Of a stretch of DNA of 64,000 nt, positions 31,577-56,243 are shown in pieces; position 1 is the stretch's first letter; each line of letters begins with the position of its first letter. The DNA is taken from assembly GCA_964469335.1 (NCBI GenBank), contig CAYXYK010000001.1, forward strand, positions 78,501 through 142,500. Direction: 5' to 3'. The DNA is from an uncultured Candidatus Saccharibacteria bacterium (GTDB lineage Bacteria > Patescibacteriota > Minisyncoccia > Phycocordibacterales > UBA6899). Below the pieces are notes generated by a model that did not search any database, had not been told where the DNA came from, and saw nothing but the letters and a program-made list of their open reading frames with translations. A program made the translations under genes and the position numbers.

Positions 31577-33346
31577 CTAACTCTGTCGTTTGTCGTGCAG
31601 GAGCATGTCCACCGCATGCCGCATGTCACCCGCCTCAGTGATGGTTCCGCCGTTCACGAAGAAGATGTCATCAGCATTCTCGATGGTGTTCAGGCGATGC
31701 GCGATGATCACCTTGGTGGTCGTGACGGGTAACTTCTTGAGTATCCCTTCCAAGAGCTGCTCGGTGACGGTGTCGATGTTCGCAGTCGCCTCATCGAGGA
31801 TGAGAATCTCGGGGTCACGCAGTACTGCACGCATGAATGCAATGATCTGCTTCTGTCCGAGACTGATCGTGTCACCGGTCGAAGTGACCCGAGTATCTAG
31901 CCCGTCACGAAAATGTGCGACGAGTTCCGCAACGCCGAACTTTTGAAGCAGCGAATTGAATTCTTCGTCACCACAGTTGTGATAAGCGGGATTTCCGTAG
32001 AGGATATTATCCTTGAATGTTCCACCAAAGAGGAACGGCTCCTGCAGGATGAAGCCGATCTTCTTTGCACGTTCTTCGTGGGCATACGAGCGGATATCCC
32101 TGCCGCCAAGGAACACCGTTCCCGCCGTCGGGTCGTAGAGTCGCGCCATGAGTGATGCGGTCGTGGTCTTCCCTCCTCCCGTCGGACCGACCAGCGCATA
32201 GGTCTTCCCTTGTTCAAGTTTGAAATTGATATCACGAAGGACTTCTTTTCCGTCCGGGTAGCGGAATGAGACGGACCTGAATTCAAGGAGCGAATCGGAT
32301 GACATGTCACCCGCCGGAAACACCTTCATGTCGGACTCGAGTGCGAGCACTTCGGAGATGCGATCGAGTCCCGCGAGTGCGAGCTGGAGTGACGACCACA
32401 CCTGTGCGAGTTGCCGGAGCGGCATATAGAAATTATTCACATAGAGAATGAACCCGACCAGAAGTCCGATGGTGAATTTACCTTCGGAAATGAGGGTAAG
32501 ACCATAGAACAGCACGATAAGCTGTGCGAGATTCGACGCGAGCGAGTAGAGCGGAGTGAATGTGTTCGACGCGATACCGGCAGCGATCGATGCATGATAA
32601 TTCTCCTCGTTCGCTTTTTTAAATTTCTCCCGGAAAAAATCCAGGCGATTGAAAGCGATGATCACCTTGAAGTTCGCAAGACTCTCCTGTATCTCTCCAC
32701 TCATGCCTCCGAGCTTGCGGAGGCTACGCAGGCTAGTGCGCTTCACCCACGGAGAGAGCAGCTGCGTAAGGATGATGACCAAAAGAGCAGGAAGGAGTGC
32801 CGCCCCGCCGAGTTTCGGATCGATGACCAAAAGGAATATGCCTGTGCCGAGGATGAGCGCAAAGTTGCCGATGAACTGCACGAGTGCCTGTGAGAAGAAT
32901 TGATTGAGCTTATCGGTATCGTTGTTGATGCGGGAAATGAGGTCGCCCGCTTTGTTCTGATTGAAGAATGCGACCGGAAGTTCTGAGAGTTTCTCGAACA
33001 GCGCATTCCGCAAACGGAAGAGCACGTTGCGTCCGACCTCACCCATCGTGCGGATCTGGACATAGCTCGCGACGAGTCCGAAAAGGTACACGACGACGAG
33101 GAGCGCGGAGAAACGCAACACTCCGGCAAAGTCACCATGGACGATAGCGGTGTCTATGGTACGCGCGATGATGACCGGCGAAAGTAGCGTCGCTGCCGAC
33201 GTGACGAAGATCGCCACAAGTGCGACCATGACCGACTTCCCCTCTTTTGCCATCAGCGGGAAAAGACGAAGCATGGCAGTACGAAGTACGCTCTGCTGTT
33301 TATCTTTTTCGTCGCTCTTTACGGATAGTCTATAGTTCATATTCAC
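31577..33346 (-). CDS. ABC transporter, fused permease/ATP-binding subunit (exporter type, MsbA-like)
   Basis: 6-TM domain then GPTGGGKTT Walker A, LSLGQKQ signature, ILILDEATANID Walker B. Confidence 0.85.
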   Translation of the reverse strand: MNMNYRLSVKSDEKDKQQSVLRTAMLRLFPLMAKEGKSVMVALVAIFVTSAATLLSPVIIARTIDTAIVHGDFAGVLRFSALLVVVYLFGLVASYVQIRTMGEVGRNVLFRLRNALFEKLSELPVAFFNQNKAGDLISRINNDTDKLNQFFSQALVQFIGNFALILGTGIFLLVIDPKLGGAALLPALLVIILTQLLSPWVKRTSLRSLRKLGGMSGEIQESLANFKVIIAFNRLDFFREKFKKANEENYHASIAAGIASNTFTPLYSLASNLAQLIVLFYGLTLISEGKFTIGLLVGFILYVNNFYMPLRQLAQVWSSLQLALAGLDRISEVLALESDMKVFPAGDMSSDSLLEFRSVSFRYPDGKEVLRDINFKLEQGKTYALVGPTGGGKTTTASLMARLYDPTAGTVFLGGRDIRSYAHEERAKKIGFILQEPFLFGGTFKDNILYGNPAYHNCGDEEFNSLLQKFGVAELVAHFRDGLDTRVTSTGDTISLGQKQIIAFMRAVLRDPEILILDEATANIDTVTEQLLEGILKKLPVTTTKVIIAHRLNTIENADDIFFVNGGTITEAGDMRHAVDMLLHDKRQS

Positions 33347-43393: not shown

Positions 43394-43891
43394 TCAGGGT
43401 TTAATACTCCTAAAATACTCCTCTCGCTCAGCCCTAAACGCAGTAGCTCTGTGTGGGTTTAGAAGATATGCAGACTTAAGGACATAATAGCCGTTACGCT
43501 TTGCAAGAATTACGGCGTAATTTTCTTTTTCAAGCCAAATAACAACCCTACGATCACCCCTCCTTTCGTTTTCCCAAGAAGAAATCTCGGGATGACTATC
43601 GCTTGCCTGTATGATCCAAGCAATCCATCTTAACCTCTCACACCTCCGAAGGTCTGGGGTTCGCTCCGCCTCAATTTCACCCTCTGATGTTAAATGCCAA
43701 AAAGAAGAGGGCTTACCCTTATACTCGGGTTTCCTTTGCAATACCACTTTCGTGCCACGAAAAAGGAGCGCGGCGTCCCTAAGTGACTCACAATATATCG
43801 CATATAACTCTTCTTGGTATGTTTCCCAGTCTCCACCCGAGAACACCACAAGCTGTGGAGGATTCAAATCTTGTTCGTCTGCGGTTTCCAT
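43394..43891 (-). CDS. Hypothetical protein (165 aa), overlaps DUF3800-like gene by 28 nt
   Basis: METADEQDLNPPQLVVFSGGDWETYQEELYAIY...; no motif recognised; lies at GC drop. Confidence 0.4.
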   Translation of the reverse strand: METADEQDLNPPQLVVFSGGDWETYQEELYAIYCESLRDAALLFRGTKVVLQRKPEYKGKPSSFWHLTSEGEIEAERTPDLRRCERLRWIAWIIQASDSHPEISSWENERRGDRRVVIWLEKENYAVILAKRNGYYVLKSAYLLNPHRATAFRAEREEYFRSIKP

Positions 43892-44565
43892 ACAAAGACA
43901 TTGAACTTATCCTCCTCTCTATCTGTTGAAGCTAGGACTGTTTTGCCGATATTACTTTCAATCATTTCCACAACCTCTCGTTTTCCCGCGCTTGTTTTCA
44001 GACCGCGGTGTGCGTAAGCCAGTGCGCCACAAAACAAGTCGGTAATTTGCATCAATTCGACTTCATGGGATCTCACTTGTTGAGCCCTTAGAGTAGAGAG
44101 GTCTTCGATGGACGCGATATTCAATATGCGCTTAAGCTCTTTGACCTTCTTATCCCCTTTTGTGTCCTTAATATCAAAATACAAATTATACTTTTCAGAG
44201 GGTTGCATAATCACGCGGAGCAGCTGGTAAAACATTTTGTAATACCAAGTATTGTGATCCTGTGAAAAAGCAGAGTGGTTAAGGAGTGTTTTATCAGGAA
44301 CTACCACTGCCCTAAAGTGAAGGTTCTGGTTTGAAAAAAAGTACTCGACGAGGGCTTTGTAGAAATTAACCTTTGACGCAGATATTTTTGTCCATTTTGC
44401 CTCAAAGGTCTGCGATAACCCGTGTTCTTTCTTGATTGCCCTAATTTGGGCAAAAGTTTCTTGGGAGTGCTCGTGGTCTACCCAAGTAGCCCCAAGAACA
44501 AATACTCCCAAGTGATCATGTTGGAGATGGCAACTTTCATCGCAATAGACATTATAGACAGCCAT
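43864..44565 (-). CDS. DUF3800-like protein (defence-island associated family)
   Basis: N-terminus MAVYNVYCDESCHLQHDHLGVFVLG with hallmark Y-x-DES motif of DUF3800; 233 aa. Confidence 0.45.
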   Translation of the reverse strand: MAVYNVYCDESCHLQHDHLGVFVLGATWVDHEHSQETFAQIRAIKKEHGLSQTFEAKWTKISASKVNFYKALVEYFFSNQNLHFRAVVVPDKTLLNHSAFSQDHNTWYYKMFYQLLRVIMQPSEKYNLYFDIKDTKGDKKVKELKRILNIASIEDLSTLRAQQVRSHEVELMQITDLFCGALAYAHRGLKTSAGKREVVEMIESNIGKTVLASTDREEDKFNVFVWKPQTNKI

Positions 44566-44647: not shown

Positions 44648-45401
44648 ATGGGAAAAATGACGCAATCAATGCAAAAAGTAATGAACTACCTTCTCGACCT
44701 TGTAGAGTCGGAAGACTTTCAGATGCAGATCAAGAACCTTCGAAAAGAGGTCGGTATCCCCGAGAATGGACTTCCGTATATTCAAGAAGACAAGGATACA
44801 TTTCGTGGACGCTCACTCTTCTATATGCCCAAGGGCGTAACGCAAGCGCAAGCAAAGCAAGCAAATCTTGGACTAAGGGAGATCACAAAGGATTTTCCTG
44901 TTCGTGAATTAGACATCACCGTCGGCTTTCGAATGTATTTTTTTCACAATGAGTTATTCATGGACAACTTTGAAAATGGTATTTTCTTCAGTAACCTTTG
45001 TAAAATTGTTGATCTGCGGGGAGACTTTCAGGAATATGCCCCCATATATGAGGAGCGAATGGAGAATTACAAAGGAGGACTATGACAAAAAGCATAAGGA
45101 GCTCAGAGAAAAGCAGTATGATCTCGGTATGCAATTGGACGACCACACAAAGGCAGACGAAAGCTATCATATTGCCGCTTCTACAGTGCTCAGCTTAGCG
45201 AAACGTGCAGTAGAGATTTTCGAAAGTTCTGAACCTGAGGAAAAACGCGTGTTTTTGAATTATCTACTTCAGAACTCCACCGTAAACGGAAAAAACCTAA
45301 GCTACGCCTTGCGTTCTCCGTTTAATGCTATCCTCGAATTGACGACTCAACCCACTAGGGGTGCCGTAGTGTGTAGACTTCGAACCTATTTGGTCAGTTA
45401 G
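44648..45401 (+). pseudogene. Frameshifted gene (two overlapping ORFs 44648-45085 / 44949-45401); C-terminal part weakly resembles tail of large serine recombinases
   Basis: Frames switch near a C5 run (gccccc 45041-45046). Second part ...EEKRVFLNYLLQNSTVNGKNLSYAL resembles the C-terminal ENKRTLLISLGTNFILYDKEL of the recombinase at 53309. Confidence 0.35.
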
Positions 45402-45416
45402 CTTGTTCTTCTAACA

Positions 45417-45443
45417 TTCACAATGTTCACAATGTTCACAAAT
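45417..45443. repeat. Three tandem 9-bp units TTCACAATG / TTCACAATG / TTCACAAAT
   Basis: ttcacaatgttcacaatgttcacaaat, followed by C-rich/G-run hairpin CCCCACCCCC..GGGGG and TTAAGTTTT (terminator-like, 45447-45481). Confidence 0.6.
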
Positions 45444-45571
45444 TTACCCCACCCCCACCCCACAGAGAGGGGGTTAAGTTTTCGTAACATCCCTAACTTG
45501 AGTACCCTCCTTCTCTCAAATCCTATTTTTAAAAAAATATTTTTTGAATTTTGGACTTATACGTACAAAGA

Positions 45572-45847
45572 CTAATCTCGACAATATCCAACAGCAGTTG
45601 AGTCCTTGCTCACTTTGCACTGAATATTGTTTGGATCGGTAGAGTCACAAAGCCAATTTCCTGCCTCTCTTGCACGCTGACATGCTCTCATGTCTGTAAA
45701 TCTTGCTGAGGCAAAGCAGTCTTCATAAACATCTGAGCAAATTACATACTCAACTGGAAATTGATAGTGTTTATACCCAAAATAGATACTTGTTATAACA
45801 AATACCGTTAGAGCGATTCTTAAGATTTTTATCTCAGTTACTTTCAT
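45572..45847 (-). CDS. Small secreted/membrane-anchored Cys-rich protein (91 aa)
   Basis: N-terminal hydrophobic segment ILRIALTVFVITSIYFGY; 7 Cys in C-terminal 60 aa; ~30% GC. Confidence 0.4.
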   Translation of the reverse strand: MKVTEIKILRIALTVFVITSIYFGYKHYQFPVEYVICSDVYEDCFASARFTDMRACQRAREAGNWLCDSTDPNNIQCKVSKDSTAVGYCRD

Positions 45848-45866
45848 AATTTAATATTTACAAATA

Positions 45867-46640
45867 CTACACAACAATTTTTTTCTTAATTTCATCATAA
45901 TATTTCCGGCATTCAACATCTACAGTTGTTGCAAAAAGGTATGTTGCTTCTACAAGTGATTGATGAAGACTGGAACTCTCTGTTGCTACGCTAATTAACT
46001 TTTTTTCAAAAGCTTGCTTATTTTTTACATATTCATTGTGCATCAATTCTCCAAACGGACCACCGTGAACAATTGATGACAGGGCAGAATATTCGCTGAT
46101 TCTGCTTGATATATATTCTTTTTGATACTTATCAAAAACAGCATCCTCTATGTTGCTATTATTTATCAGATAACTGAAAATATTAGAAATATTAAACTGC
46201 AGTGCGGCATTTTCTAATTTGGTATTGTTGTCACTCTTTGTACCCCACTTTGTATACTCAGGGGATATTTTAGCATTAAAATTATTTATTTTTTTAAATG
46301 CTTCTAAATCTTCGTTGCCTCTTAATTGGCTATAATATGTTTTACCTACTGAGTCATCTCTATCTTTTAATGACTTAACGTAAATATATAAATGCTTAAA
46401 ATTATGCTCCACAAGTGAGCGAAGTAAAACGAGAGAGGAATAAAGGTTACCACTCTGACACTCGCTTAAAATTGCATTTGTTAAGTACCCACTTTTTGGT
46501 ACGAAGGACACGAGTGCTTTTCCTGTTAGTTTAAAATTCCCTTTGGCCAAAGATTCACTAATTATCGGTAGTGTTCTTGTTGTCTTCTCTGCAAGTAAGA
46601 CATTTAAGCAAATCTGTTTTTCAATTTCACCAAAAGACAT
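45867..46640 (-). CDS. Hypothetical protein (257 aa) with possible HEPN-like Rx4H motif
   Basis: LLRSLVEHNFKH (R-x4-H); AT-rich, no other motif recognised. Confidence 0.35.
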   Translation of the reverse strand: MSFGEIEKQICLNVLLAEKTTRTLPIISESLAKGNFKLTGKALVSFVPKSGYLTNAILSECQSGNLYSSLVLLRSLVEHNFKHLYIYVKSLKDRDDSVGKTYYSQLRGNEDLEAFKKINNFNAKISPEYTKWGTKSDNNTKLENAALQFNISNIFSYLINNSNIEDAVFDKYQKEYISSRISEYSALSSIVHGGPFGELMHNEYVKNKQAFEKKLISVATESSSLHQSLVEATYLFATTVDVECRKYYDEIKKKIVV

Positions 46641-46704
46641 GTCTCCAAGCTAGTCCATATCTTAACGTAATGCAATCTAGATTTGGGAGTAAATCGGCGC
46701 ATGC

Positions 46705-47205
46705 CTAATTTCCTCCTTCAAAATCACGGAGGATTTTTAGGTATTCTTGTTGAACATCGTGTGGGATCTGGGGATGATCAAGTGGTTTAATTGCACCTTT
46801 GTTTTCGACAATCACACTTACCTCATCAAAGAAAAATCCATCTTGGGTGGCCATGAATAGGAAGGAAGGGTTCCAAGACTCTGCCATGCGGTGAGCATAG
46901 CGATATACATAGTCGCTATCGAGATGGTGGAGATATTTCACCTCGATCAATCTTACTTCTTTTGTTTTCTTGTTAATTACGGCAAAATCAGGTGAGGTCC
47001 TGAGTATCTCTAGCGTACCTTTGTTTTCATCATACCCACCCTGCACCAGTTCAGGGACAATTTTTTCATAACCAAACTCTAGCACAGTGAAGTCTCCAAC
47101 CTCACGAAGCATCTGCGCAAAAATTGTTTCTGCGATTTTGCCTTTTACTAAATTTCTTGCGAATGTGATGTTGTTGCTCATAAACTGAATGGTAGCATAA
47201 GCCAA
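46705..47205 (-). CDS. Candidate PD-(D/E)xK-fold nuclease (166 aa)
   Basis: LRTSPDFAVINKKTKEVRLIEVKYL: hydrophobic-PD ... E-V-K with the spacing of the restriction-endonuclease-like fold. Confidence 0.35.
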   Translation of the reverse strand: MAYATIQFMSNNITFARNLVKGKIAETIFAQMLREVGDFTVLEFGYEKIVPELVQGGYDENKGTLEILRTSPDFAVINKKTKEVRLIEVKYLHHLDSDYVYRYAHRMAESWNPSFLFMATQDGFFFDEVSVIVENKGAIKPLDHPQIPHDVQQEYLKILRDFEGGN

Positions 47206-47649
47206 TTACAACATCACTTCGGGTTTAAATTCCACTATTGGACAGATCGCCAATGCTCTTGCTTCTCCGGTTAGTTCAGGACTACCATGGGAATTCGTTA
47301 TCAAGTCATATGCTCCTTTTGGGCAAACCATGAAATGCATTTTTGGTAAAAAGATTGAGAATAATTTTGCTACACCTCGATATTTTTTGCGTGTCCATGT
47401 GAAAATAACTTCTTCTGATGAGGCAACATTTCTCTCATTGTAGATTCTATTTAAGTTACGAAAATCCTCTTTTTGAGTAATTAAACCCTTAGTGGAGCTA
47501 TCCATCCCCGAGCACAGAAAGACTATTGAGGCATAGGGCTTGAGTCTGCCTACCTCAGTTTTATCCTCTGGTAGGTAACTTAATATCTTGCATACCTCGC
47601 CATCAATAGAAGACCAGTCGCTGTCACTTAGTAGTATTTTCATGCTCAT
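47206..47649 (-). CDS. Hypothetical protein (147 aa), immediately upstream of and abutting the PD-(D/E)xK candidate
   Basis: MSMKILLSDSDWSS N-terminus loosely reminiscent of TIR/Rossmann-like beta-strand start; no firm assignment. Confidence 0.3.
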   Translation of the reverse strand: MSMKILLSDSDWSSIDGEVCKILSYLPEDKTEVGRLKPYASIVFLCSGMDSSTKGLITQKEDFRNLNRIYNERNVASSEEVIFTWTRKKYRGVAKLFSIFLPKMHFMVCPKGAYDLITNSHGSPELTGEARALAICPIVEFKPEVML

Positions 47650-47656
47650 AAGATCC

Positions 47657-48025
47657 TTATTTCTTTTCCATGTAAGCCATATATTCTGAACTTAAAGAAC
47701 TTTCTTCTGCTTCCAGTAGGTGATATACACAGCTGTCTAATAGCGCACGATCAAAAGATTCTCTGTTGCTTAGTTTTATTTTCCCCAAACAACTGTCGAC
47801 ATATTGACCGTGGAGTGCAAACCTAATTTGGGCACAGTCTTCGCGATTCTTAAAACCAATTTCTCTTAAAAATCCTTCTTCATATCCCTCACATGACACA
47901 ATACTGGCTACCCTCTCACCCTGATCAACTCGCCAAATGTCCCTTCCCAAATATAGTCCGAGAAAAAGCATGAAGAAAGAAAATACGATAAGAAAATTTT
48001 CTGAGCTCTTTGAAAATAGTTTCAT
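47657..48025 (-). CDS. Small membrane-anchored protein (122 aa), first gene of AT-rich operon
   Basis: FLIVFSFFMLFLGLYLG TM helix then Cys-containing soluble domain. Confidence 0.35.
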   Translation of the reverse strand: MKLFSKSSENFLIVFSFFMLFLGLYLGRDIWRVDQGERVASIVSCEGYEEGFLREIGFKNREDCAQIRFALHGQYVDSCLGKIKLSNRESFDRALLDSCVYHLLEAEESSLSSEYMAYMEKK

Positions 48026-48299
48026 GACTTAGAAATATAAGACTTGTTCTAATCCCATTGTCGGCATACAAAAAGCCCACCACGGGTAGAGACCGAAATC
48101 TCTCAATCTGGTTTCCCAGAAAGGCAGGACATGCAACCCCATGATGGGTTTGTTATGCGTGTCCTGACTTTTTCACCATGCCAATATTGCTATTGGTTTA
48201 GGCTACTGTTTCTTATTCAGTTGTACCGATACTCTAGCACAAAAAACTCTTTATTTACCAGCATTGCAACCAATATGTTGTCTGATGGGAATTAGGCAT

Positions 48300-49973
48300 A
48301 TGGTGTATTATATATTTGTGAATATACAGAAAATTATAATACACAACTTCCGAAGTATTGATGACGTAGGGATTGAGTTATCTGAATTTGGTAAGATCAA
48401 CTTATTCATCGGCAAGAATAATTGTGGGAAGTCCAACATACTCAGATTCATCCAATTGCTCGGAAACAGGACTCTCGTAAGCCAGATGAATAATGCTTCT
48501 TTAAACGGAGAATACACAATTAATCCACCTTTTCTTAGTATTGATGATCACAATGGATACCAAATTACAAAACCAATCAAATTCTCAATTTCTGCTCAAG
48601 TTACAGAGGACTTCATTGAACGTTCTTTGGGCTTAATACCAACAGACGACTTCTATGTTACTTACGAACTGAGACAGAATCAAGATTCTTTATGCTTGAT
48701 CAAGCAAACATCCAGCTTCATTAATGATTTGCCGGAAGAAACAATTAGATTATTTGAATCTACACATGCGTCCAGATTTGGTGGCTCCTCTGGTGGAACC
48801 ATTGGAGATGCGAGAAATAGAGTTTCTAATTTGCTTAAGGTGTCGAATCAGATAGGGTTTCCAGCGGTTGTGCACATGGATGAATTCAGAAAAGCAAGGG
48901 AAAACAAAGAGCTTAAGGCGAAATTAAATGAAATCGTAAATCCAGACTACACAAATCAAGCAAACATTCTTAAGAAAGAACTCTTGTGTAAATATTTTAA
49001 GGAAGTATTTGGTTTTGAAGTTGACATCAAAATTCCTAGTTTAGAAAAAGAGATAGAGTTAGTGATCGACAAAAAACAAATACCCCTCCACTCTCTTGGT
49101 GCAGGATTACAGCAAGTAGTACTAATTGCTTTTACAATAGTCACGAGTGACGCGGAGATAATATGTATTGATGAACCTGAGCTTCATATTCACCCAGCTG
49201 CACAGAGAGAGTTACTGAGCCTGATTTCAAAAATTGAGGACAAGATATTTTTTTTAGCCACACATTCAAACCACTTCTTAGACTACGAAGTGAAAAACAA
49301 AAAAGTTTTTCAACTTGTAAAGGAAGATGGGGCGACAAAAATTACCCCCAATGCAAAGACAAATTCATACAGAGAGGTACTTGATGATCTAGGAATTAGG
49401 GCAAGCGAAATTTATCAAACAAACGGAGTTTTGTGGGTTGAGGGACCGTCAGATAGAATCTATATAAAAAAATGGATTGAGCTACTTTCACCAGAGTTAG
49501 AGGAGGGATTGCAATACACTTTTCAATACTATGGCGGCAAAATTTTATCTCACTACTCAGTTGATGATCTTGAATTTAAGGAGTACCTAAACGTTCTCAA
49601 TTTAAACAGGAACGCATATGTGGTCATGGATAGTGATATGAGTAAAAAATTTTCCATACAAGACCTGAGGGATACAAAGAGAAGAATTATTACTGAATGT
49701 GAAAAAAATAAAATAGGTTATTGGATTACTGAGGGAAAGGAAATGGAGAGCTATTTAACTGATCGCCTGCTCACTGAATATGCAAAAACTAAAATTAATC
49801 GCGATATATATGCACCGATCCAAGATTATTGCCCATCTTACAATAATGACACTAAGGTCCTTTTCTCAAGGAAAATATCAACTGCGTTAACTTTGGATGA
49901 TATTTCAAACAACTTAGATTTGCACGCAAAAATTACGGAAATTATCGATCACATAATAATTTGGAATAAGTAG
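48300..49973 (+). CDS. OLD-family nuclease: N-terminal ABC-type ATPase + C-terminal Toprim domain (class-1 OLD / GajA-like)
   Basis: IQKIIIHNFRSI start region. Walker A GKNNCGKS. IDEPELHIHPAAQRELL (Walker B/D-loop/H-switch, as in AAA_21/OLD). Toprim motifs GVLWVEGPSD and YVVMDSD. Alternative upstream start 48264. Confidence 0.7.
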   Translation: MVYYIFVNIQKIIIHNFRSIDDVGIELSEFGKINLFIGKNNCGKSNILRFIQLLGNRTLVSQMNNASLNGEYTINPPFLSIDDHNGYQITKPIKFSISAQVTEDFIERSLGLIPTDDFYVTYELRQNQDSLCLIKQTSSFINDLPEETIRLFESTHASRFGGSSGGTIGDARNRVSNLLKVSNQIGFPAVVHMDEFRKARENKELKAKLNEIVNPDYTNQANILKKELLCKYFKEVFGFEVDIKIPSLEKEIELVIDKKQIPLHSLGAGLQQVVLIAFTIVTSDAEIICIDEPELHIHPAAQRELLSLISKIEDKIFFLATHSNHFLDYEVKNKKVFQLVKEDGATKITPNAKTNSYREVLDDLGIRASEIYQTNGVLWVEGPSDRIYIKKWIELLSPELEEGLQYTFQYYGGKILSHYSVDDLEFKEYLNVLNLNRNAYVVMDSDMSKKFSIQDLRDTKRRIITECEKNKIGYWITEGKEMESYLTDRLLTEYAKTKINRDIYAPIQDYCPSYNNDTKVLFSRKISTALTLDDISNNLDLHAKITEIIDHIIIWNK

Positions 49974-50005
49974 TAATATTATCCCTTCATGACTATACTT
50001 AGGCC

Positions 50006-50380
50006 ATGGAAACAACCATTGAAAAATCGAATACTAACCAGATTTCAAAGCGTGGAGGCGCCCGTGTGGGGGCCGGCAGAAAGCCAAAAATGCAGTATGA
50101 GGCACGTGAACTATTCAATATGGCAGTTGATGCACGTTGGCCCTTAATCATGCAGAAAATCGACGAATTAATTCAAAAGGGAGACAAGGATATTCTCAAG
50201 ATGATTGTAGAACAACGCATTGGGAAACCCACACAAAGCGTGGCAGTAAAGAATGATGGAAATCCACGAGTTAACTACAATTTCTTTATCCAGCCCAAAG
50301 TGCAGGAGGCCGTGAGAGTGTTTGAGGACCAGCTGAAAAAAGAAATAATGCTTGAGGCTAGTACTTCTCCTCAAGATTGA
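50006..50380 (+). CDS. Small DNA-binding-type protein with N-terminal AT-hook-like Gly/Arg motif (phage small-terminase/regulator-like?)
   Basis: KRGGARVGAGRKPK motif then helical domain; 124 aa. Confidence 0.3.
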   Translation: METTIEKSNTNQISKRGGARVGAGRKPKMQYEARELFNMAVDARWPLIMQKIDELIQKGDKDILKMIVEQRIGKPTQSVAVKNDGNPRVNYNFFIQPKVQEAVRVFEDQLKKEIMLEASTSPQD

Positions 50381-50528
50381 TTTCCGTTTGAAAACAGATT
50401 CATTTTAGGTCCCTTATAGGCATATATTCCTATTTGGTGGCTAAGAATGGCAATGACGGTAATCCCTCCCTTGAGAGAAGCTGACTATCTAGAAATTGGT
50501 GGTAACATCACAATATTGAATTTAATGG

Positions 50529-51269
50529 GTGATGTTAATTTCTATGAACGGTGATAAAAAACATATAAGTGACGATCTCTCAGAGATACTCTACAAAGCT
50601 AGTTTAAAGAAACCTTTCAAAGATAAGGTTCAGGAAATTCGAACTGAATTCAATATCCCACCTAAGGGGTTTGTGTCTAAAAAAGAAGTAGATCTTTGGT
50701 ATTCAAAATTAGGTCAGTCTTGGCCGATGCACGAAAACTTTTATGCACGAATCGAACAATTGCCACTTGTTAAGGAGTTGCAACTTAGTGCTTCAGCCAT
50801 ACTGGCTGACTACATTCTAAGCAATGGCACGTTCAAAATATTTAATTCCACCCCATACTATTACAGTTGTGATTTTGAAGAGGTGAGTCCCTCAAAAAAA
50901 GTGAATACTGTTCTTGAAAATAGATGGAAACAATTTGGGCAACCGTTTATACGAGTTTACATACCAAGAAATGCTGGGCAACCAGCGGTTCATGAATTTA
51001 TTAAGACACACTGGAGGCTGTTCCAAGGCATACATTTCAGAAAAGCAGAATACGCAAAATCAGAAAGAAGGACCAGTTCTGATGATAAAAAAATTATCAA
51101 TGAAATTGAGAGGTGCTGGAAATTACCGCGTGAAACGCTTGGCTTAATAAAGGGCGAAAAGAGAGAAGATGGAATTGCACGGTTGATAAACTCAAAATTT
51201 AAAAAGAGTTTGTCGCCTGAAGCAGTGCGACAAAGACACCGAAGATACCGAGCGAAGGGTGACAACTAA
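50529..51269 (+). CDS. Hypothetical protein (246 aa)
   Basis: AT-rich ORF, basic C-terminus RQRHRRYRAKGDN; no motif recognised. Confidence 0.35.
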   Translation: MMLISMNGDKKHISDDLSEILYKASLKKPFKDKVQEIRTEFNIPPKGFVSKKEVDLWYSKLGQSWPMHENFYARIEQLPLVKELQLSASAILADYILSNGTFKIFNSTPYYYSCDFEEVSPSKKVNTVLENRWKQFGQPFIRVYIPRNAGQPAVHEFIKTHWRLFQGIHFRKAEYAKSERRTSSDDKKIINEIERCWKLPRETLGLIKGEKREDGIARLINSKFKKSLSPEAVRQRHRRYRAKGDN

Positions 51270-51430
51270 CAGATCCCCTCAGCTGTCCTCTACTTAAATA
51301 GTTACATACACCTAGAATACAAAACGTATTCAGTTTTTGTTTACGGTGATTATTGAGGATAGAAACCCGCCAATGAATCACCGCGTTGGCGGATTTCTGT
51401 TTATTAATATTTAAACATAAGAATGAAAAT

Positions 51431-51652
51431 ATGAATTACAAAACATTTGTAACGGTTAATGTGCCCATGGTTAGTGAGCTAAGGCGTCGGTTATTTGCTG
51501 AGTTTGGCATTGATATTTCACAAGAAGATATATGGCAGTCCCTTCTAATTGCTCAGCTTTCAAATCACCTATTTGGTGACTTAATAGCAAAAGCTCATCA
51601 GAAAAAATATCAATGTAGTACGCATGTTCAGTGTAAATGTAAAATAGTATGA
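51431..51652 (+). CDS. Ribbon-helix-helix (CopG/Arc-like) DNA-binding protein
   Basis: MNYKTFVTVNVPMVSELRRRLFAEFG: alternating-hydrophobic beta-strand followed by two helices; 4-nt overlap with downstream NTPase gene. Confidence 0.35.
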   Translation: MNYKTFVTVNVPMVSELRRRLFAEFGIDISQEDIWQSLLIAQLSNHLFGDLIAKAHQKKYQCSTHVQCKCKIV

Positions 51653-53010
51653 AAGCACTAAAGAAACAGCAGAAGGCATCTGTGGTAACTTCGGAGTTTT
51701 TGGCAGAGACAGTTTATGACCCGAACACTAAGGAAACAAGATTCGCAGTTTGCGCCAGTGGTGAAATGGGCTTTACAGAGAGTATTTTTTTGAAAGGCAA
51801 AACAATTTACCCTCTAGATGGTGGTGATGATCTCATTCAAAAAAGTGTGATACTTCTTCCGTCTCTCCCAATTGAATACGGTGATGAAGCGAAGTTGCTT
51901 GAAGAAATCAGAGCTTTCATTCATAAGTATGTCGACATAACGCCTATGTATGAGCAGATTGCATCATATTACGTACTATTTAGCTGGGTGTTCGATAAGT
52001 TTCATGAAGTACCTTATCTACGTGCTATTGGTGATTTTGGAAGCGGAAAGAGTAGGTTCATTCGGACCATAGGATCAATCTGCTATCGGCCAATTTTTAC
52101 AGGAGGGGCAACGACAACCGCGCCAATTTTTCGCATTCTCGATGATATCGGCGGGACACTTGTCCTCGACGAGGCGGACTTACGGGCAAGTGACATGACG
52201 AACGACATGGTGAAGATCTTAAATACGGGATATGAGAAAGGAGTCCCAGTGTTACGAACGCATGGAAAGGATTTCTCAGAGATAAAAGCATTTAATGTAT
52301 TCTCTCCAAAAATTATTGCCACCAGAGAGAAGTTTGATGACAAAGCACTTGAGAGTAGGTTTCTTGTTGAAGAAATGGGTCAAGGGAGTTTACGTAAAGA
52401 CATACCAAGAAACTTACGTGATGGTTTCAGCCTCGAAGCACTTGATTTACGCAATAAACTCCTCATGTGGAGATTCAGAAACTTCAGTAAGCCTATTTGT
52501 CAGGATGAAAAGCCGATAGAAGGAATCCATCCGCGCCTGCACCAAATTATTGTACCCCTTCTCTCAATAATTGAGTCTGAGGAAATGAGAGTTTCACTGA
52601 AGGAGTTTGTGATGAAGTACAACAATGACTTAGTGGCGGACCGTGGCCTTACTAGGGAATCAGATATTATCTTCGCAATCTTGAAACTTGAACATGAACT
52701 CGGAAATAAAGAGGTTACTGTTGGTGAGATAGCAAAATCACTAAATGCTGATCTTGAAGTTGACGACTTTGATGGCAAAATTACTGCCAGCAAAGCCGGA
52801 TGGTATCTACGCGCCAAACTACAGCTTAAATCAGAGAAAACACGAAAGGGATACATTCTCAACCTTGAGAAAAATAGAGCAAAACTAAACTTTTGGAAAG
52901 AGCGATTCGGTATTACCGATGCGGATATTCGTGGCGAGGATGTGAACCTCGTGAACGATGTGAACGTTACACAGCAGAGCCTACTTAATGCTGAGAATGT
53001 CGGTTTCTAG
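51649..53010 (+). CDS. P-loop NTPase, likely plasmid/phage replication (primase-helicase-associated) type with C-terminal winged-helix-like region
   Basis: Walker A GDFGSGKS, Walker B TLVLDEADL ~35 aa later; 453 aa. Confidence 0.4.
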   Translation: MKALKKQQKASVVTSEFLAETVYDPNTKETRFAVCASGEMGFTESIFLKGKTIYPLDGGDDLIQKSVILLPSLPIEYGDEAKLLEEIRAFIHKYVDITPMYEQIASYYVLFSWVFDKFHEVPYLRAIGDFGSGKSRFIRTIGSICYRPIFTGGATTTAPIFRILDDIGGTLVLDEADLRASDMTNDMVKILNTGYEKGVPVLRTHGKDFSEIKAFNVFSPKIIATREKFDDKALESRFLVEEMGQGSLRKDIPRNLRDGFSLEALDLRNKLLMWRFRNFSKPICQDEKPIEGIHPRLHQIIVPLLSIIESEEMRVSLKEFVMKYNNDLVADRGLTRESDIIFAILKLEHELGNKEVTVGEIAKSLNADLEVDDFDGKITASKAGWYLRAKLQLKSEKTRKGYILNLEKNRAKLNFWKERFGITDADIRGEDVNLVNDVNVTQQSLLNAENVGF

Positions 53011-53220: not shown

Positions 53221-53311
53221 TTAACCTTGTACCCAAAGAGGGGCAACGACGGCTTTTGTCTAGCAACATGAGCATCAGTTCGTTGTCCCTCTTTGTGCTT
53301 TTAGGTTAATG
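53221..53311. repeat. Imperfect ~31-bp-arm inverted repeat overlapping recombinase start codon (candidate att/recombination site)
   Basis: Left arm TTAACCTTGTACCCAAAGAGGGGCAACGAC; right arm (revcomp) TTAACCTAAAAGCACAAAGAGGGACAACGAA; outer TTAACC and inner AAAGAGGGRCAACGA match; 28-nt spacer. Confidence 0.5.
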
Positions 53312-55003
53312 ATAAAAAAAATTATGAATCAGACTTCCGATAAAATCCGATATTTCCTCTATGCTCGAAAATCGAGCGAGAGTGAGGAAAAACAAGTTGC
53401 CTCGATTGATTCCCAGATCACCGAACTTGAACGCTTGGCGAAACAGTACGGACTTACTGTGGTCCGCGTATTCTCTGAATCCAAGTCTGCAAAAGCCCCA
53501 AACAATCGCCCTGTGTTTGGTGAGATGATGGAACGTCTCTATAAAGGCGAGGCTGAAGGGATTCTATGCTGGAAGCTGGACCGCCTCGCAAGAAACCCTG
53601 TCGATGGTGGAACCATCAACTGGATACTTCAAAATGGCATTGTGAAGCATATTCGCACCTTTGACCGCGAGTATCTCCCTACTGATAACGTACTGATGAT
53701 GAGCGTAGAATTTGGCATGGCAAATCAGTTCATCCGTGACCTTAGCTCGAACACCAAGAGAGGCCTGAACTCAAAAGCAGAAAAAGGGGTATTTCCGAGT
53801 CGTGCACCTATTGGATATTTAAATGATAAATACCATCCTAAAGGAGAAAAGAAAATCATTCCTGATCCTGAACGTTTTTCCATCATCCGAAAGCTCTGGG
53901 ATGAGCTCCTAGAGAAAGAATGTACGATTGATAGCCTTCACACACTTGCAACTGAAAAGTACCATCTCACTGGCTTCTATGGAAAGCCTGTCCACATAAA
54001 TGTTATATATGATATTTTCACTAATCCTTTCTATTGTGGGATGTTCAACTGGAATAAGAAAATCTGGCAAGGTACGCATGAGCCCATGATTTCAAAAGAA
54101 GAATTCGAGCGAGCACAATTAATCATCTCGGGTAAAAACAAAGGAAACAGGAAGCGAAAACATGATTTCCCTTTTGCAGGCACAATGCATTGCGGTGAGT
54201 GTGGGTGCGCAATCACCGCAGAATTTCACCGCAAGAAGCAGGTGAATGGTAATGTACATGAGTACACCTTCTATCGTTGCTCGAAGCGTAAAGGGACTGA
54301 ATGTAAGCAATCATTTGTGCGCTCAACTGAACTAGAGAAGCAAGTACTGAAAAAACTTGAGGAAGTAGAGATTCCTCGTGATTTCTCTGAATGGGCACTT
54401 GGATTGCTCCGTATTGAGACCGACAGAGAAAAGATAACACGGGATCAAATGCTGAGTAAATTTCAAAATGACTACAGTAAGTGTCTCAAGCGTATTGATA
54501 CCCTCAAGGATATGCGAATGAACCGCGAGATTGACTCGGATGAGTTTGCAAAAAGAAAAGCTGATGTTGAAACAGAGAAAGACAGCATTCGGTCTTCTAT
54601 TAACAAGCTCGACAAGCGAGTAAGTGAGCGACTGGTTGAATTTGAAGAAAAGTTTAGCTTTGCAGAAACAGCAAAGGAGAAGTTTGAAAAGAATACTGAG
54701 AACAAGCGGACACTGCTCATTTCACTGGGAACTAACTTCATTCTCTATGACAAAGAGTTGAAATTTGATTGGGAAGAGATCATGGCACAGGTTCGAACCG
54801 CATCAAAAGAAGCGAAGAAACTTCACAAAGCGTTCGAACCTATTGAAAACCGCTATACTTCAACGGATTATGCAGAAATGTACTCTGCTAGTCCGATAAT
54901 GGGTCGCCAGAGGGACGCATTCAGAACTCTCGATTGGGCGCAGATCAAGAGAGATCTTGAGGTAATCTCACCCCTTCAGCCACAGTGGCTTATTCGAGCG
55001 TAA
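53309..55003 (+). CDS. Large serine recombinase (integrase)
   Basis: IRYFLYARKSSESEEKQVASIDSQ (catalytic Ser, SxDxQ), GILCWKLDRLARN, recombinase domain, zinc ribbon CGECGCAITAEF...YRCSKRKGTEC, C-terminal coiled coil; 564 aa. Confidence 0.85.
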   Translation: MIKKIMNQTSDKIRYFLYARKSSESEEKQVASIDSQITELERLAKQYGLTVVRVFSESKSAKAPNNRPVFGEMMERLYKGEAEGILCWKLDRLARNPVDGGTINWILQNGIVKHIRTFDREYLPTDNVLMMSVEFGMANQFIRDLSSNTKRGLNSKAEKGVFPSRAPIGYLNDKYHPKGEKKIIPDPERFSIIRKLWDELLEKECTIDSLHTLATEKYHLTGFYGKPVHINVIYDIFTNPFYCGMFNWNKKIWQGTHEPMISKEEFERAQLIISGKNKGNRKRKHDFPFAGTMHCGECGCAITAEFHRKKQVNGNVHEYTFYRCSKRKGTECKQSFVRSTELEKQVLKKLEEVEIPRDFSEWALGLLRIETDREKITRDQMLSKFQNDYSKCLKRIDTLKDMRMNREIDSDEFAKRKADVETEKDSIRSSINKLDKRVSERLVEFEEKFSFAETAKEKFEKNTENKRTLLISLGTNFILYDKELKFDWEEIMAQVRTASKEAKKLHKAFEPIENRYTSTDYAEMYSASPIMGRQRDAFRTLDWAQIKRDLEVISPLQPQWLIRA

Positions 55004-55200: not shown

Positions 55201-55605
55201 TCATTTTCCTTTGTAAAAATCTTTGAACATCGAATCATCCCAGATGGACTTCGCTATGATATAAATTATACCAAGAATTTGCCCAAAAACAGAAACTGAG
55301 AGCACCTCGAGCTCATACCCGTTCAATAGGGTGAATTGATGATCTGTAAAAATTCTGACATATGACTGGATGGCAATAATTGTGAAAAGGAGAAGGAAGG
55401 ATACTACGGCTGATCCTATCGCAAAATAAAAAACTATCTTCCTCTGACCCTTTCGCTCTTCGAGTATGTTACCAACCGACTGAGGATCTGGCTGGGAAAA
55501 CTCCTCAAGGGAAGCCGCCTTGTTTGCCACTTTTTCTATCAGTGCCTCTAGCTCCGAATGCTCATCTGGAGTTAGTTTGTGTGTTTTTATTTCCTCGCGA
55601 GCCAT
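55201..55605 (-). CDS. Small membrane protein (134 aa), overlaps ImmA-like gene
   Basis: Two TM helices (IVFYFAIGSAVVSFLLLFTIIAI; ILGIIYIIAKSIW). Confidence 0.4.
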   Translation of the reverse strand: MAREEIKTHKLTPDEHSELEALIEKVANKAASLEEFSQPDPQSVGNILEERKGQRKIVFYFAIGSAVVSFLLLFTIIAIQSYVRIFTDHQFTLLNGYELEVLSVSVFGQILGIIYIIAKSIWDDSMFKDFYKGK

Positions 55606-56108
55606 TTCAGTCTGTTCTTTACAGCTATTTCAGAGACACCGAAGTACTGCGCCGCTGCGCCAATATCTCCTGTTGTTGAGATAACCTTAATAAATTGATC
55701 CTTGGGCATCAGCAGGGTCGCGGCAAAGTAGTTTGCCTCTGTCTCTTCAAGCGACTCGACTGTATTGTCTTTGTAATTAAAGGAGTCGATACGAAGTTTT
55801 TCCTGATTAGGATGGAGCAAGAAATGCCCAAGTTCGTGTGCCAACGTAAAAGTTTTCCTTGTTGGACTATAGCTGCTGTTGAGCAGTATCTTTGCTCCAC
55901 CGTTTTCCCATTTGATTACGCCGTCAATCTCTGTGTCCGCATCAGTTTTTGGAAGATCAGTAAAAAACACCTCCGCCTGAAGCTCTTTTGCGAAATCAAG
56001 CAAATTATTTTGCGGATAGGAAAGACCTGTTCGCAACTTTAAAGACTCAACCGTTTGGTCAATCTCGTTTTGTCTTTCGGGGGTTAAAAATGCCATTGTT
56101 GCAATCAT
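55587..56108 (-). CDS. ImmA/IrrE-family zinc metallopeptidase
   Basis: FTLAHELGHFLLHPNQE (HExxH) in COG2856-like context; no adjacent XRE HTH partner recognised. Confidence 0.65.
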   Translation of the reverse strand: MIATMAFLTPERQNEIDQTVESLKLRTGLSYPQNNLLDFAKELQAEVFFTDLPKTDADTEIDGVIKWENGGAKILLNSSYSPTRKTFTLAHELGHFLLHPNQEKLRIDSFNYKDNTVESLEETEANYFAATLLMPKDQFIKVISTTGDIGAAAQYFGVSEIAVKNRLKWLARK

Positions 56109-56243
56109 ACATAAAATGCATGGGAAGAAAAGGTTTCTGCCCCACACCGTAATTATCTCATTATTCTCTCACATATCCAATGAGTTCCTCCTGAACTCTT
56201 TTGCTTGATAAAATGGCTTTGTTGAGTAAAGTAAAGTAACAAC

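What the first reader, a model, noticed from the sequence alone, without database searches (positions are those of the whole stretch)
45572..48025. AT-rich (about 30% GC) five-gene minus-strand operon of unknown function with PD-(D/E)xK-like and HEPN-like signatures, a candidate novel defence/toxin module
Five tightly packed co-directional genes, with gaps of 0-64 nt, sit in a segment far below host GC, right next to an OLD nuclease gene and downstream of a DUF3800-like gene. The 166-aa protein has a clean PD...E-V-K pattern (RTSPDFAVINKKTKEVRLIEVKY). The 257-aa protein has an R-x4-H motif (RSLVEH). The operon also encodes a TM-anchored small protein, an abutting 147-aa unknown and a small Cys-rich exported protein. 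None matches a system recognisable by eye. The context, composition and nuclease-like motifs fit an uncharacterised defence or toxin-immunity system.
Basis: partly seen in the sequence, partly recalled or inferred. Interest (0 to 1): 0.7.

Follow-up and report, generated by a model that had tools for sequence, protein, structure and literature searches.

The report
Mosaic defence-island genes, not one system
The five tightly packed genes are real, but they are a patchwork of independently distributed genes inside an integrated low-GC island, not one conserved five-gene system; the notable parts are an unusually conserved, unannotated small DNA-cutting enzyme and an overlooked structured RNA (LOOT) just upstream.

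The parts
48088..48204 (-). LOOT RNA (Rfam RF03000), full length, in the divergent intergenic region between the OLD-like gene and the 122-aa gene
   Evidence: 70.1 bits against a gathering score of 46.4, model positions 1-121 of 121. It is the only Rfam hit in the window. MFE z-score -3.2. Compensatory changes across 6 copies.
48066..48090 (-). GC hairpin plus U-tract at the 3' end of LOOT (terminator-like), conserved in other LOOT copies
   Evidence: Terminator-like site. GGTGGGCTTTTTGT is conserved in the window, L255 and L047, with a variant in L063/L069.
47657..48025 (-). 122-aa ORF: N-terminal membrane helix (residues 8-26) and 4 Cys. No relatives found. Start uncertain: a 104-aa version was called on the Logan contig L012.
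   Evidence: No hit in any family library.
47206..47649 (-). 147-aa protein of an unnamed family (about 150-aa domain). In other organisms the domain is fused to N-terminal multi-pass membrane segments or zinc ribbons.
   Evidence: 256 representative clusters at E<=1e-3 and 159 at E<=1e-10. Fusions. No Pfam or PDB sequence match.
46705..47181 (-). 158-aa stand-alone PD-(D/E)xK nuclease (catalytic E18, D65, E80, K82) of an unannotated, highly conserved family
45867..46640 (-). 257-aa all-helical protein, divergent DUF5677, with invariant R74-x4-H79 and S188-S-x-V-H-G-G194
   Evidence: 16 of 19 members hit PF18928, best E 3.4e-11. No HEPN fold match.
45572..45847 (-). 91-aa ORF: N-terminal membrane or signal helix (residues 3-21) and 6 Cys. 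Singleton cluster.
48264..49973 (+). OLD-family ABC-ATPase/TOPRIM nuclease, head-to-head with LOOT
   Evidence: AAA_15 1.8e-23, AAA_21, OLD-like_TOPRIM. PADLOC AriA/GajA/Old models. Best PDB sequence match is the class 1 OLD nuclease 6p74.
43394..44565 (-). PDC-M04 candidate defence pair: DUF3800 protein (A, 43864-44565) and partner (B, 43394-43891)
   Evidence: PDC-M04A E 2.5e-86, PDC-M04B E 2.8e-52. DUF3800 E 1.4e-13.
53309..55003 (+). Large serine recombinase of the island (Resolvase + Recombinase + Zn_ribbon_recom)
   Evidence: Homologues lie within 5 kb of 13 of 80 DUF5677-like loci, in 3 nuclease-family loci, and next to LOOT in L255.
55587..56147 (-). IrrE/ImmA-like M78 peptidase, a typical mobile-element regulator
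   Evidence: Peptidase_M78 E 1.6e-25.

Best explanation
The five genes are a mosaic of separate cargo modules in a roughly 20-kb horizontally acquired island mobilised by a large serine recombinase. They are not one five-component machine. They may well be co-transcribed, since the gaps are short and no internal terminator is evident, but each has its own evolutionary distribution. Module 1 is a 158-aa stand-alone PD-(D/E)xK enzyme with a complete E-D-ExK site and an Hjc-like core. I infer that it is a Mg2+-dependent DNA endonuclease acting on its own, probably as a dimer like Hjc. It stays almost unchanged while the genes next to it are continually replaced by restriction-modification, Abi, Gabija, Shedu and similar genes, so it behaves as a conserved anchor at the edge of a variable cargo slot. 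Module 2 is a divergent DUF5677 helical protein that elsewhere sits between a small HTH regulator and a DNA methyltransferase, or beside serine recombinases. I infer an accessory or regulatory role tied to R-M-type islands; an RNase role is possible but unsupported. Module 3 is the 147-aa protein, perhaps working with the preceding 122-aa membrane protein, because in other organisms the same domain is fused to membrane segments. Module 4 is an orphan Cys-rich membrane-anchored peptide. Directly upstream lies an autonomous, terminated LOOT small RNA, head-to-head with the OLD nuclease gene. Shown: the anatomy, the nuclease fold, the catalytic residues, the lack of co-occurrence, the selection regime and the presence of LOOT. 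Inferred: all biochemical activities and any role in defence.
For: Non-conservation of the set. Hypervariable neighbours of the nuclease gene: 104 neighbours fall into 85 clusters, 71 of them singletons. Many neighbours are R-M or defence genes: PIN_8, NERD, XhoI, MmeI, Mrr, GmrSD, SLFN helicase, SduA_C, DpnI, Abi_2, KAP. Breakpoints at gene boundaries: similarity between L177 and the window starts exactly at the nuclease ATG, with 87% identity in the nuclease ORF against about 98% in the first 100 nt of the DUF5677 gene. In L178 and L180 similarity is confined to the ORF. L015/L017 and L063/L072 lose synteny right after the nuclease stop codon. Nuclease identity. Strong constraint: pS is saturated in 2711 of 3160 pairs, median omega is 0.025 for dS<1.5, and CDS GC tracks host GC. 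DUF5677 contexts: an HTH gene 1 nt upstream in 17 loci, EcoRI-type/N6/N4 methyltransferases downstream, and a serine recombinase nearby in 13 of 80 loci. A preprint reports DUF5677 enriched next to serine recombinases (PMC12632615). Island context. The 147-aa family and its membrane fusions. LOOT.
Against: The tight packing and common orientation fit an operon, and co-transcription was not tested. Two pairwise adjacencies do recur: 147-like directly before 257-like in L133 (1-nt gap), and 158 before 257 in L177. Some functional coupling among these three genes therefore cannot be excluded. The 122-aa and 91-aa proteins were searched only in limited collections, so their orphan status is provisional. 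Sampling of the nuclease family relied on exact peptide patterns and may miss divergent members and contexts. No activity was measured.
Confidence: 0.6

Rival explanations
1. One reading: the five genes form one novel defence or toxin-immunity system, with a PD-(D/E)xK DNase and a HEPN RNase as effectors and membrane proteins as sensors or immunity factors.
For: Tight co-directional packing, defence-island context, an intact nuclease site, an invariant R-x4-H.
Against: The set is not conserved anywhere sampled. The closest relative already has a different upstream gene. The HEPN fold is unsupported. A DUF5677 ORF tested in E. faecalis was not among the five ORFs with antiphage activity.
Confidence: 0.07
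2. The real unit is a two-gene module, 147-aa plus DUF5677-like, as in L133. The nuclease gene was inserted between them secondarily.
For: In L133 a 147-like gene (151 aa) precedes the 257-like gene by 1 nt, with no nuclease gene. The nuclease ORF behaves as a discrete unit with breakpoints at its ends.
Against: Only one such locus was found among 80. The other known 147-like locus (L011) has no DUF5677 gene. The usual upstream partner of this DUF5677 subfamily is an HTH gene. L177 keeps nuclease→DUF5677 but lacks the 147-aa gene. There are no target-site duplications or repeats around the nuclease gene.
Confidence: 0.2
3. The 158-aa nuclease is a DNA repair or recombination enzyme (Hjc-like junction resolvase or similar) that merely flanks an integration hotspot. 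Its defence-rich neighbourhood is incidental.
For: Housekeeping-like constraint (omega about 0.025) and ameliorated GC. Closest small structural neighbour is Hjc (25% id). Some neighbours are repair genes: Ogt-like DNA_binding_1, adenine glycosylase, UDG, NUDIX, RecO_N, UvrD. In L047/L063/L069 it borders a variable slot.
Against: Patchy distribution: 99 confirmed hits among 185,579 species genomes, although the search was pattern-limited. There is no conserved synteny. In the window it sits inside a foreign low-GC island in a host of about 53% GC, so it travels with cargo.
Confidence: 0.25
4. The 158-aa gene is a selfish homing-endonuclease-like gene that inserts itself between other genes.
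Against: Very strong purifying selection with saturated synonymous sites and host-like GC, which points to ancient residence rather than recent invasion. There is no conserved target sequence or repeats. Only 1 of 80 copies is disrupted. It is absent from the viral and plasmid collections searched.
Confidence: 0.06
5. The 257-aa protein is a HEPN-type RNase toxin.
For: Invariant R74-x4-H79. All-helical fold. Frequent translational coupling to a small HTH gene, which resembles a toxin-antitoxin pair.
Confidence: 0.15

Closest known systems
Archaeal Holliday-junction resolvase Hjc (PDB 1gef, 2wcw, 1hh1) and related minimal PD-(D/E)xK nucleases such as I-Ssp6803I (2ost)
   Different: No sequence-level match to any Hjc, Pfam or NCBIfam model. 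There is a roughly 25-residue insertion between helix 1 and the PD strand, plus a C-terminal helix. It is found mostly in Patescibacteria and other uncultured bacteria next to variable, defence-rich DNA. Its substrate is unknown.
DUF5677 (PF18928)
   Same: 16 of 19 members of the 257-aa family hit the model, best E 3.4e-11. It is associated with serine recombinases, as reported for DUF5677 in Bacillota (PMC12632615).
   Different: The window protein itself scores 19.3 bits, below the 27.1-bit cut-off. This subfamily is typically embedded in HTH-DUF5677-methyltransferase operons, which I did not find described in the two papers that mention DUF5677.
Defence islands and hotspots carried by integrative elements (for example, serine-recombinase-associated defence loci)
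   Same: A low-GC island with a large serine recombinase, an IrrE-like regulator, PDC-M04 and an OLD nuclease. Cargo is shuffled at gene boundaries.
   Different: The five focal genes match no PADLOC model. The conserved anchors here are a small nuclease gene and a structured RNA, not housekeeping core genes.
LOOT RNA (Rfam RF03000; Weinberg et al. 2017, PMC5737381)
   Same: Full-length match above the gathering score, with the four-hairpin architecture.
   Different: The literature I could read gives it no function or gene association. Here it lies head-to-head with OLD-family genes in two unrelated loci (the window and L069), next to a serine recombinase in L255, and within 4 kb of the 158-aa nuclease gene in five loci.

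Membership tests
PD-(D/E)xK nuclease superfamily (158-aa protein) | alpha-beta-beta-beta-alpha-beta core fold shared with restriction endonucleases and Hjc | tested here: met
PD-(D/E)xK nuclease superfamily (158-aa protein) | Catalytic acidic residues and lysine in the pattern E...(P)D...(D/E)xK | tested here: met
   E18, D65, E80 and K82 are invariant in 36 sequences. Caveat: 48 columns are invariant in this family, so invariance alone is not specific to the active site.
PD-(D/E)xK nuclease superfamily (158-aa protein) | Metal-dependent nuclease activity | not testable with these tools
   Needs biochemistry.
Hjc family (Holliday-junction resolvase) | Sequence-profile membership, and junction-specific cleavage as a dimer | tested here: not met
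   No Hjc or other Pfam/NCBIfam hit. No PDB sequence hit with the family profile at E<=10. Activity and oligomeric state could not be tested.
HEPN superfamily (257-aa protein) | R-x4-6-H motif | tested here: met
   R74 and H79 are invariant in 19 sequences.
HEPN superfamily (257-aa protein) | HEPN helical-bundle fold similar to solved HEPN domains | tested here: not met
HEPN superfamily (257-aa protein) | Profile similarity to a HEPN or Abi Pfam family | tested here: not met
   None at E<=1 in any of the 19 members.
DUF5677 (PF18928) (257-aa protein) | Score at or above the Pfam gathering threshold | tested here: inconclusive
   The window protein scores 19.3 bits against 27.1. However, 16 of 19 close relatives hit the model, best E 3.4e-11, and 10 carry the precomputed PF18928 tag.
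Conserved multigene defence system (the five-gene set as a unit) | Co-occurrence of the component genes in the same neighbourhood across genomes | tested here: not met
   0 of 80 nuclease loci carry any of the other four genes. 1 of 80 DUF5677 loci carries a 147-like gene and none carries the nuclease. L177 keeps only nuclease→DUF5677.
Known defence systems (PADLOC-DB v2) | Match of any of the five proteins to a PADLOC model | tested here: not met
   No hit at E<=1 for any of the five.
Type II toxin-antitoxin pair (HTH antitoxin + DUF5677) | Small HTH gene translationally coupled upstream | tested here: not met
   Present in 17 related loci but absent from the window, where the nuclease gene occupies the upstream position.
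LOOT RNA (RF03000) | Covariance-model score at or above the Rfam gathering score, full-length | tested here: met
   70.1 bits against 46.4, model positions 1-121 of 121.
OLD-family nuclease (neighbour at 48264-49973) | N-terminal ABC-type ATPase plus C-terminal TOPRIM | tested here: met
   AAA_15 and AAA_21 above threshold. OLD-like_TOPRIM 18.1 bits, just below 23.2. PADLOC Old/GajA/AriA models. Class 1 OLD 6p74 is the best PDB match.

The most novel reading that the evidence does not exclude
The ultra-conserved 158-aa PD-(D/E)xK nuclease gene and the LOOT RNA are the two conserved anchors of a previously unrecognised cargo-exchange hotspot in Patescibacteria-type genomes and their mobile islands. 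The nuclease (by cutting next to its own gene) and/or LOOT (as a recombination target or a regulator of adjacent OLD/Gabija-type nucleases) would actively promote or control the swapping of defence cassettes. That would give the orphan LOOT RNA its first biological context.
Probability: 0.12. Interest if true: 0.8.

Novelty: new variant of a known kind. Interest (0 to 1): 0.45.

Why it matters
The proposed five-gene defence system should not be pursued as one unit. Three narrower leads are worth following. First, a large family of small PD-(D/E)xK nucleases (more than 734 clusters at 90% identity) has no Pfam or NCBIfam model. It evolves under housekeeping-like constraint yet is patchily distributed, and it sits at the edge of variable, defence-rich slots, mostly in uncultured Patescibacteria. 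Second, the orphan LOOT RNA now has assignable hosts (Patescibacteria MAGs and a serine-recombinase island) and recurrent neighbours (OLD-family nucleases, serine recombinases, this nuclease), which makes its function testable. Third, DUF5677 proteins are consistently embedded in HTH-DUF5677-methyltransferase operons, which suggests a role connected to restriction-modification.

Tried and rejected
1. All five proteins were scanned against Pfam, PADLOC, NCBIfam and PHROGs. Nothing was significant.
2. The near-equal contig lengths of P0005 and P0036 suggested one contig carrying both the DUF5677 and nuclease genes. They are different contigs, and the truncated gene upstream of DUF5677 in L093/L094 is unrelated to the nuclease.
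3. The 147-aa protein looked like an orphan in the word-indexed search, with 1 relative. The exhaustive HMMER search overturned that with 256 clusters.
4. Transposon-like or homing unit around the nuclease gene: there is no conserved DNA beyond the ORF and no flanking repeats, and strong purifying selection argues against a decaying selfish gene.
5. Phage or plasmid origin: the nuclease family has no relatives in IMG/VR, INPHARED or PLSDB; the DUF5677-like family has none in IMG/VR or PLSDB; the 147-aa protein has none in PLSDB.
6. The 122-aa and 91-aa proteins as paralogues: no BLASTP similarity.
8. A loose LOOT pattern in viral contigs gave more than 120 matches. Only one (L255) is LOOT by covariance model, and a specific pattern again found only L255.
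9. An integron-like cassette array was considered from the co-directional short ORFs. The gaps of 7-64 nt are too short for attC sites, and the island's recombinase is a serine recombinase, not IntI. This was not tested further.
Full report
**Observation.** The window has five co-directional minus-strand ORFs at the stated coordinates:
- 91 aa, 45572-45847
- 257 aa, 45867-46640
- 166 aa from a TTG, 46705-47205 (every homologue starts at the ATG at 47181, giving 158 aa)
- 147 aa, 47206-47649
- 122 aa, 47657-48025

The gaps are 19, 64, 0 or 24, and 7 nt. GC is 0.36-0.39 (0.376 over 45950-48896), not 0.30. The low-GC tract runs from about 38 to 58 kb, against 0.50-0.59 elsewhere. Both quoted motifs are present. 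The neighbours are as described: PDC-M04A/B (DUF3800 plus partner; E 2.5e-86 and 2.8e-52) and an OLD-family ATPase/TOPRIM gene. The same island also carries a large serine recombinase (53309-55003) and an IrrE/M78 peptidase, so it is an integrated mobile element with defence cargo. None of the five proteins has a significant hit in Pfam, PADLOC, NCBIfam or PHROGs.

**Is it a unit?** No.
- I fetched 80 genomic loci for the 158-aa family and 80 metagenomic loci for the 257-aa family, plus individual contigs.
- BLAST and HMM-profile searches found none of the other four genes within 5 kb of any 158-aa homologue.
- Among the 257-aa loci, one (L133) has a 147-like gene and none has the nuclease.
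- The immediate neighbours of the 158-aa gene are hypervariable: 104 neighbours fall into 85 clusters, 71 of them singletons.
- The closest relative (L177; 98% aa, 87% nt) is decisive. Similarity to the window begins exactly at the nuclease ATG. It continues through the 64-nt spacer (about 70%) into the first 100 nt of the 257-aa gene (about 98%). The upstream genes are different.
- In L178 and L180 (85% and 84% aa), similarity is confined to the ORF. L178 also carries a 70%-nt homologue of the window's ABC transporter, so it comes from a related host with the nuclease gene at another site.
- The segment is therefore a mosaic with breakpoints at gene boundaries. The two adjacencies that recur are 147→257 (L133; 1-nt gap) and 158→257 (L177).

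**The 158-aa protein.**
- E18, D65, E80 and K82 are invariant.
- The AF2 model (pLDDT 84) has the alpha-beta-beta-beta-alpha-beta core.
- The family has more than 734 clusters at 90% identity. It has no Pfam or NCBIfam model; its best Pfam hit is TnsA_N at 17 bits, below threshold.
- It occurs mostly in Patescibacteria MAGs. It also occurs in MAGs labelled Gammaproteobacteria, Bacteroidota, Chloroflexi, Bdellovibrionales, Leptospirales, Bacilli and Nitrosopumilus.
- Its conservation is not due to recent spread. Synonymous sites are saturated in 2711 of 3160 pairs, omega is about 0.025 where dS<1.5, and CDS GC follows host GC.
- DNA conservation stops at the start and stop codons, and there are no flanking repeats.
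- About a quarter of its immediate neighbours are R-M, Abi or defence genes: PIN_8, NERD, XhoI, MmeI, Mrr, GmrSD, SLFN helicase, SduA_C, DpnI, Abi_2, KAP. The rest include repair and housekeeping genes.
- It has no relatives in IMG/VR, INPHARED or PLSDB.

**The 257-aa protein.**
- It is an all-helical protein (10 helices, pLDDT 83) with invariant R74-x4-H79 and S-S-x-V-H-G-G.
- 16 of 19 family members hit DUF5677 (best E 3.4e-11). The window protein itself is below threshold.
- Its usual context is an HTH gene of about 68 aa lying 1 nt upstream (17 loci), with EcoRI-type, N6 or N4 DNA methyltransferases downstream.
- A homologue of the window's serine recombinase lies within 5 kb in 13 of 80 loci.
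- One preprint found DUF5677 enriched beside serine recombinases. The ORF it tested was not among the five with antiphage activity (PMC12632615).

**The other three proteins.**
- The 147-aa protein looked like an orphan in the word-indexed search. The exhaustive HMMER search found 256 representative clusters.
- Longer members carry N-terminal multi-pass membrane segments or zinc ribbons/CpXC.
- In the window and in L011, a separate small membrane protein gene lies immediately upstream. That pattern hints that the 122-aa and 147-aa products work together.
- The 122-aa and 91-aa products each have one N-terminal hydrophobic helix and 4 or 6 Cys.
- They show no similarity to each other. No relatives turned up in the limited searches available.

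**LOOT RNA, an overlooked element.**
- An Rfam scan found a full-length LOOT RNA (RF03000; 70.1 bits against 46.4) at 48204→48088. It is on the minus strand, directly upstream of the cluster and head-to-head with the OLD gene. It is the only Rfam hit in the window.
- A GC hairpin plus U-tract follows it and is conserved in other copies. LOOT is therefore probably an autonomous, terminated sRNA and not a leader of the operon.
- A covariance model built from this copy, confirmed with Rfam's own model, found LOOT in 4 of the 80 nuclease loci (L015, L047, L063, L069). In each it is on the same strand, 3.2-3.9 kb downstream of the nuclease gene. It found none in the 80 DUF5677 loci.
- In IMG/VR it was found in one contig, L255, next to a serine recombinase 35% identical to the window's.
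- In L047/L063/L069 only the nuclease ORF and the LOOT block are conserved. The roughly 3.5 kb between them is unrelated.
- In L069 that cargo is a class-2 OLD/GajA-like gene plus a UvrD/GajB-like helicase, with the OLD-like gene head-to-head with LOOT as in the window.
- Three of the four loci belong to one subclade, so the association is suggestive, not proven.
- The literature I could read assigns LOOT no function.

**Verdict.**
- The interpretation as one novel five-gene defence module is not supported. The PD-(D/E)xK call is confirmed and the HEPN call is not.
- The best reading is a mosaic of independent cargo genes in a serine-recombinase-borne defence island.
- The leads of real interest are the ultra-conserved unannotated nuclease family bordering variable slots, and the LOOT RNA's recurrent neighbourhood.

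Noticed in passing
window 48088-48204 (-), plus the 3' hairpin/U-tract at 48066-48090: A full-length LOOT RNA (RF03000), an orphan metagenomic RNA, lies head-to-head with the OLD-family gene and directly upstream of the five genes. It is the only Rfam hit in the 64-kb window.
   Followed up: yes
L015 8620-8741; L047 7282-7401; L063 9264-9379; L069 9265-9380; L255 5001-5120: Further LOOT copies. Four lie 3-4 kb downstream of 158-aa nuclease homologues in Patescibacteria MAGs, and the DNA between nuclease and LOOT is non-homologous in L047/L063/L069. One is in a viral-labelled contig next to a serine recombinase. In L069 LOOT is head-to-head with a Gabija-like OLD plus UvrD pair.
   Followed up: partly
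alignment A9 (six LOOT copies), columns 65-84 against 138-158: RNAalifold predicts pairing, with compensatory changes, between LOOT's apical AACCCAUCA segment and the conserved 3' GGUGGGCUUUUUGU tail. This could be an alternative to the terminator-like hairpin, or a pseudoknot.
   Followed up: no
window 43394-44565 (-): A complete PDC-M04 candidate defence pair: a DUF3800 protein plus its partner, with overlapping genes. Weinberg et al. 2017 reported many structured RNA motifs associated with DUF3800 genes. No DUF3800 motif was detected here at E<=0.1, only LOOT 3.5 kb away.
   Followed up: partly
window 45413-45461 (read on the minus strand), just downstream of the 91-aa gene: Three tandem 9-nt repeats (GTGAACATT GTGAACATT GTGAATGTT) preceded by a G-rich tract (GGGGTGGGGGTGGGGT). 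This could be a protein-binding site or an element boundary.
   Followed up: no
window 49989-53010 (+): Downstream of the OLD gene are a 124-aa protein (weak PHROG hit), a 246-aa protein and a 453-aa protein containing a P-loop-like GSGKSR. None has a Pfam or NCBIfam hit. They lie between OLD and the serine recombinase and may be element replication or regulation genes.
   Followed up: no
window 44648-45401 (+): Two overlapping plus-strand ORFs (145 and 150 aa) lie between PDC-M04 and the five-gene cluster, converging on the 91-aa gene. Neither has a family hit.
   Followed up: no
L003, L106, L109, L112, L115, L117-L122, L130 and others: A recurrent operon: a small HTH (about 68 aa), a DUF5677-like gene after a 1-nt gap, then a DNA methyltransferase (EcoRI-type, N6 or N4) and sometimes a restriction enzyme (RE_R_Pab1). 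I did not find this DUF5677 context described in the papers searched.
   Followed up: partly
L072 5515-5586 (-): A tRNA gene lies 47 nt after the stop codon of a 158-aa nuclease homologue, at the point where synteny with L063 breaks. This fits an integration hotspot next to the nuclease gene.
   Followed up: no
L178 712-1328 against window 31596-32215: A 53%-GC metagenome contig carries a 70%-nt homologue of the window's ABC transporter gene and, 1.2 kb away, an 85%-identical copy of the nuclease gene in a different context. So a relative of the host has the gene at another locus.
   Followed up: no
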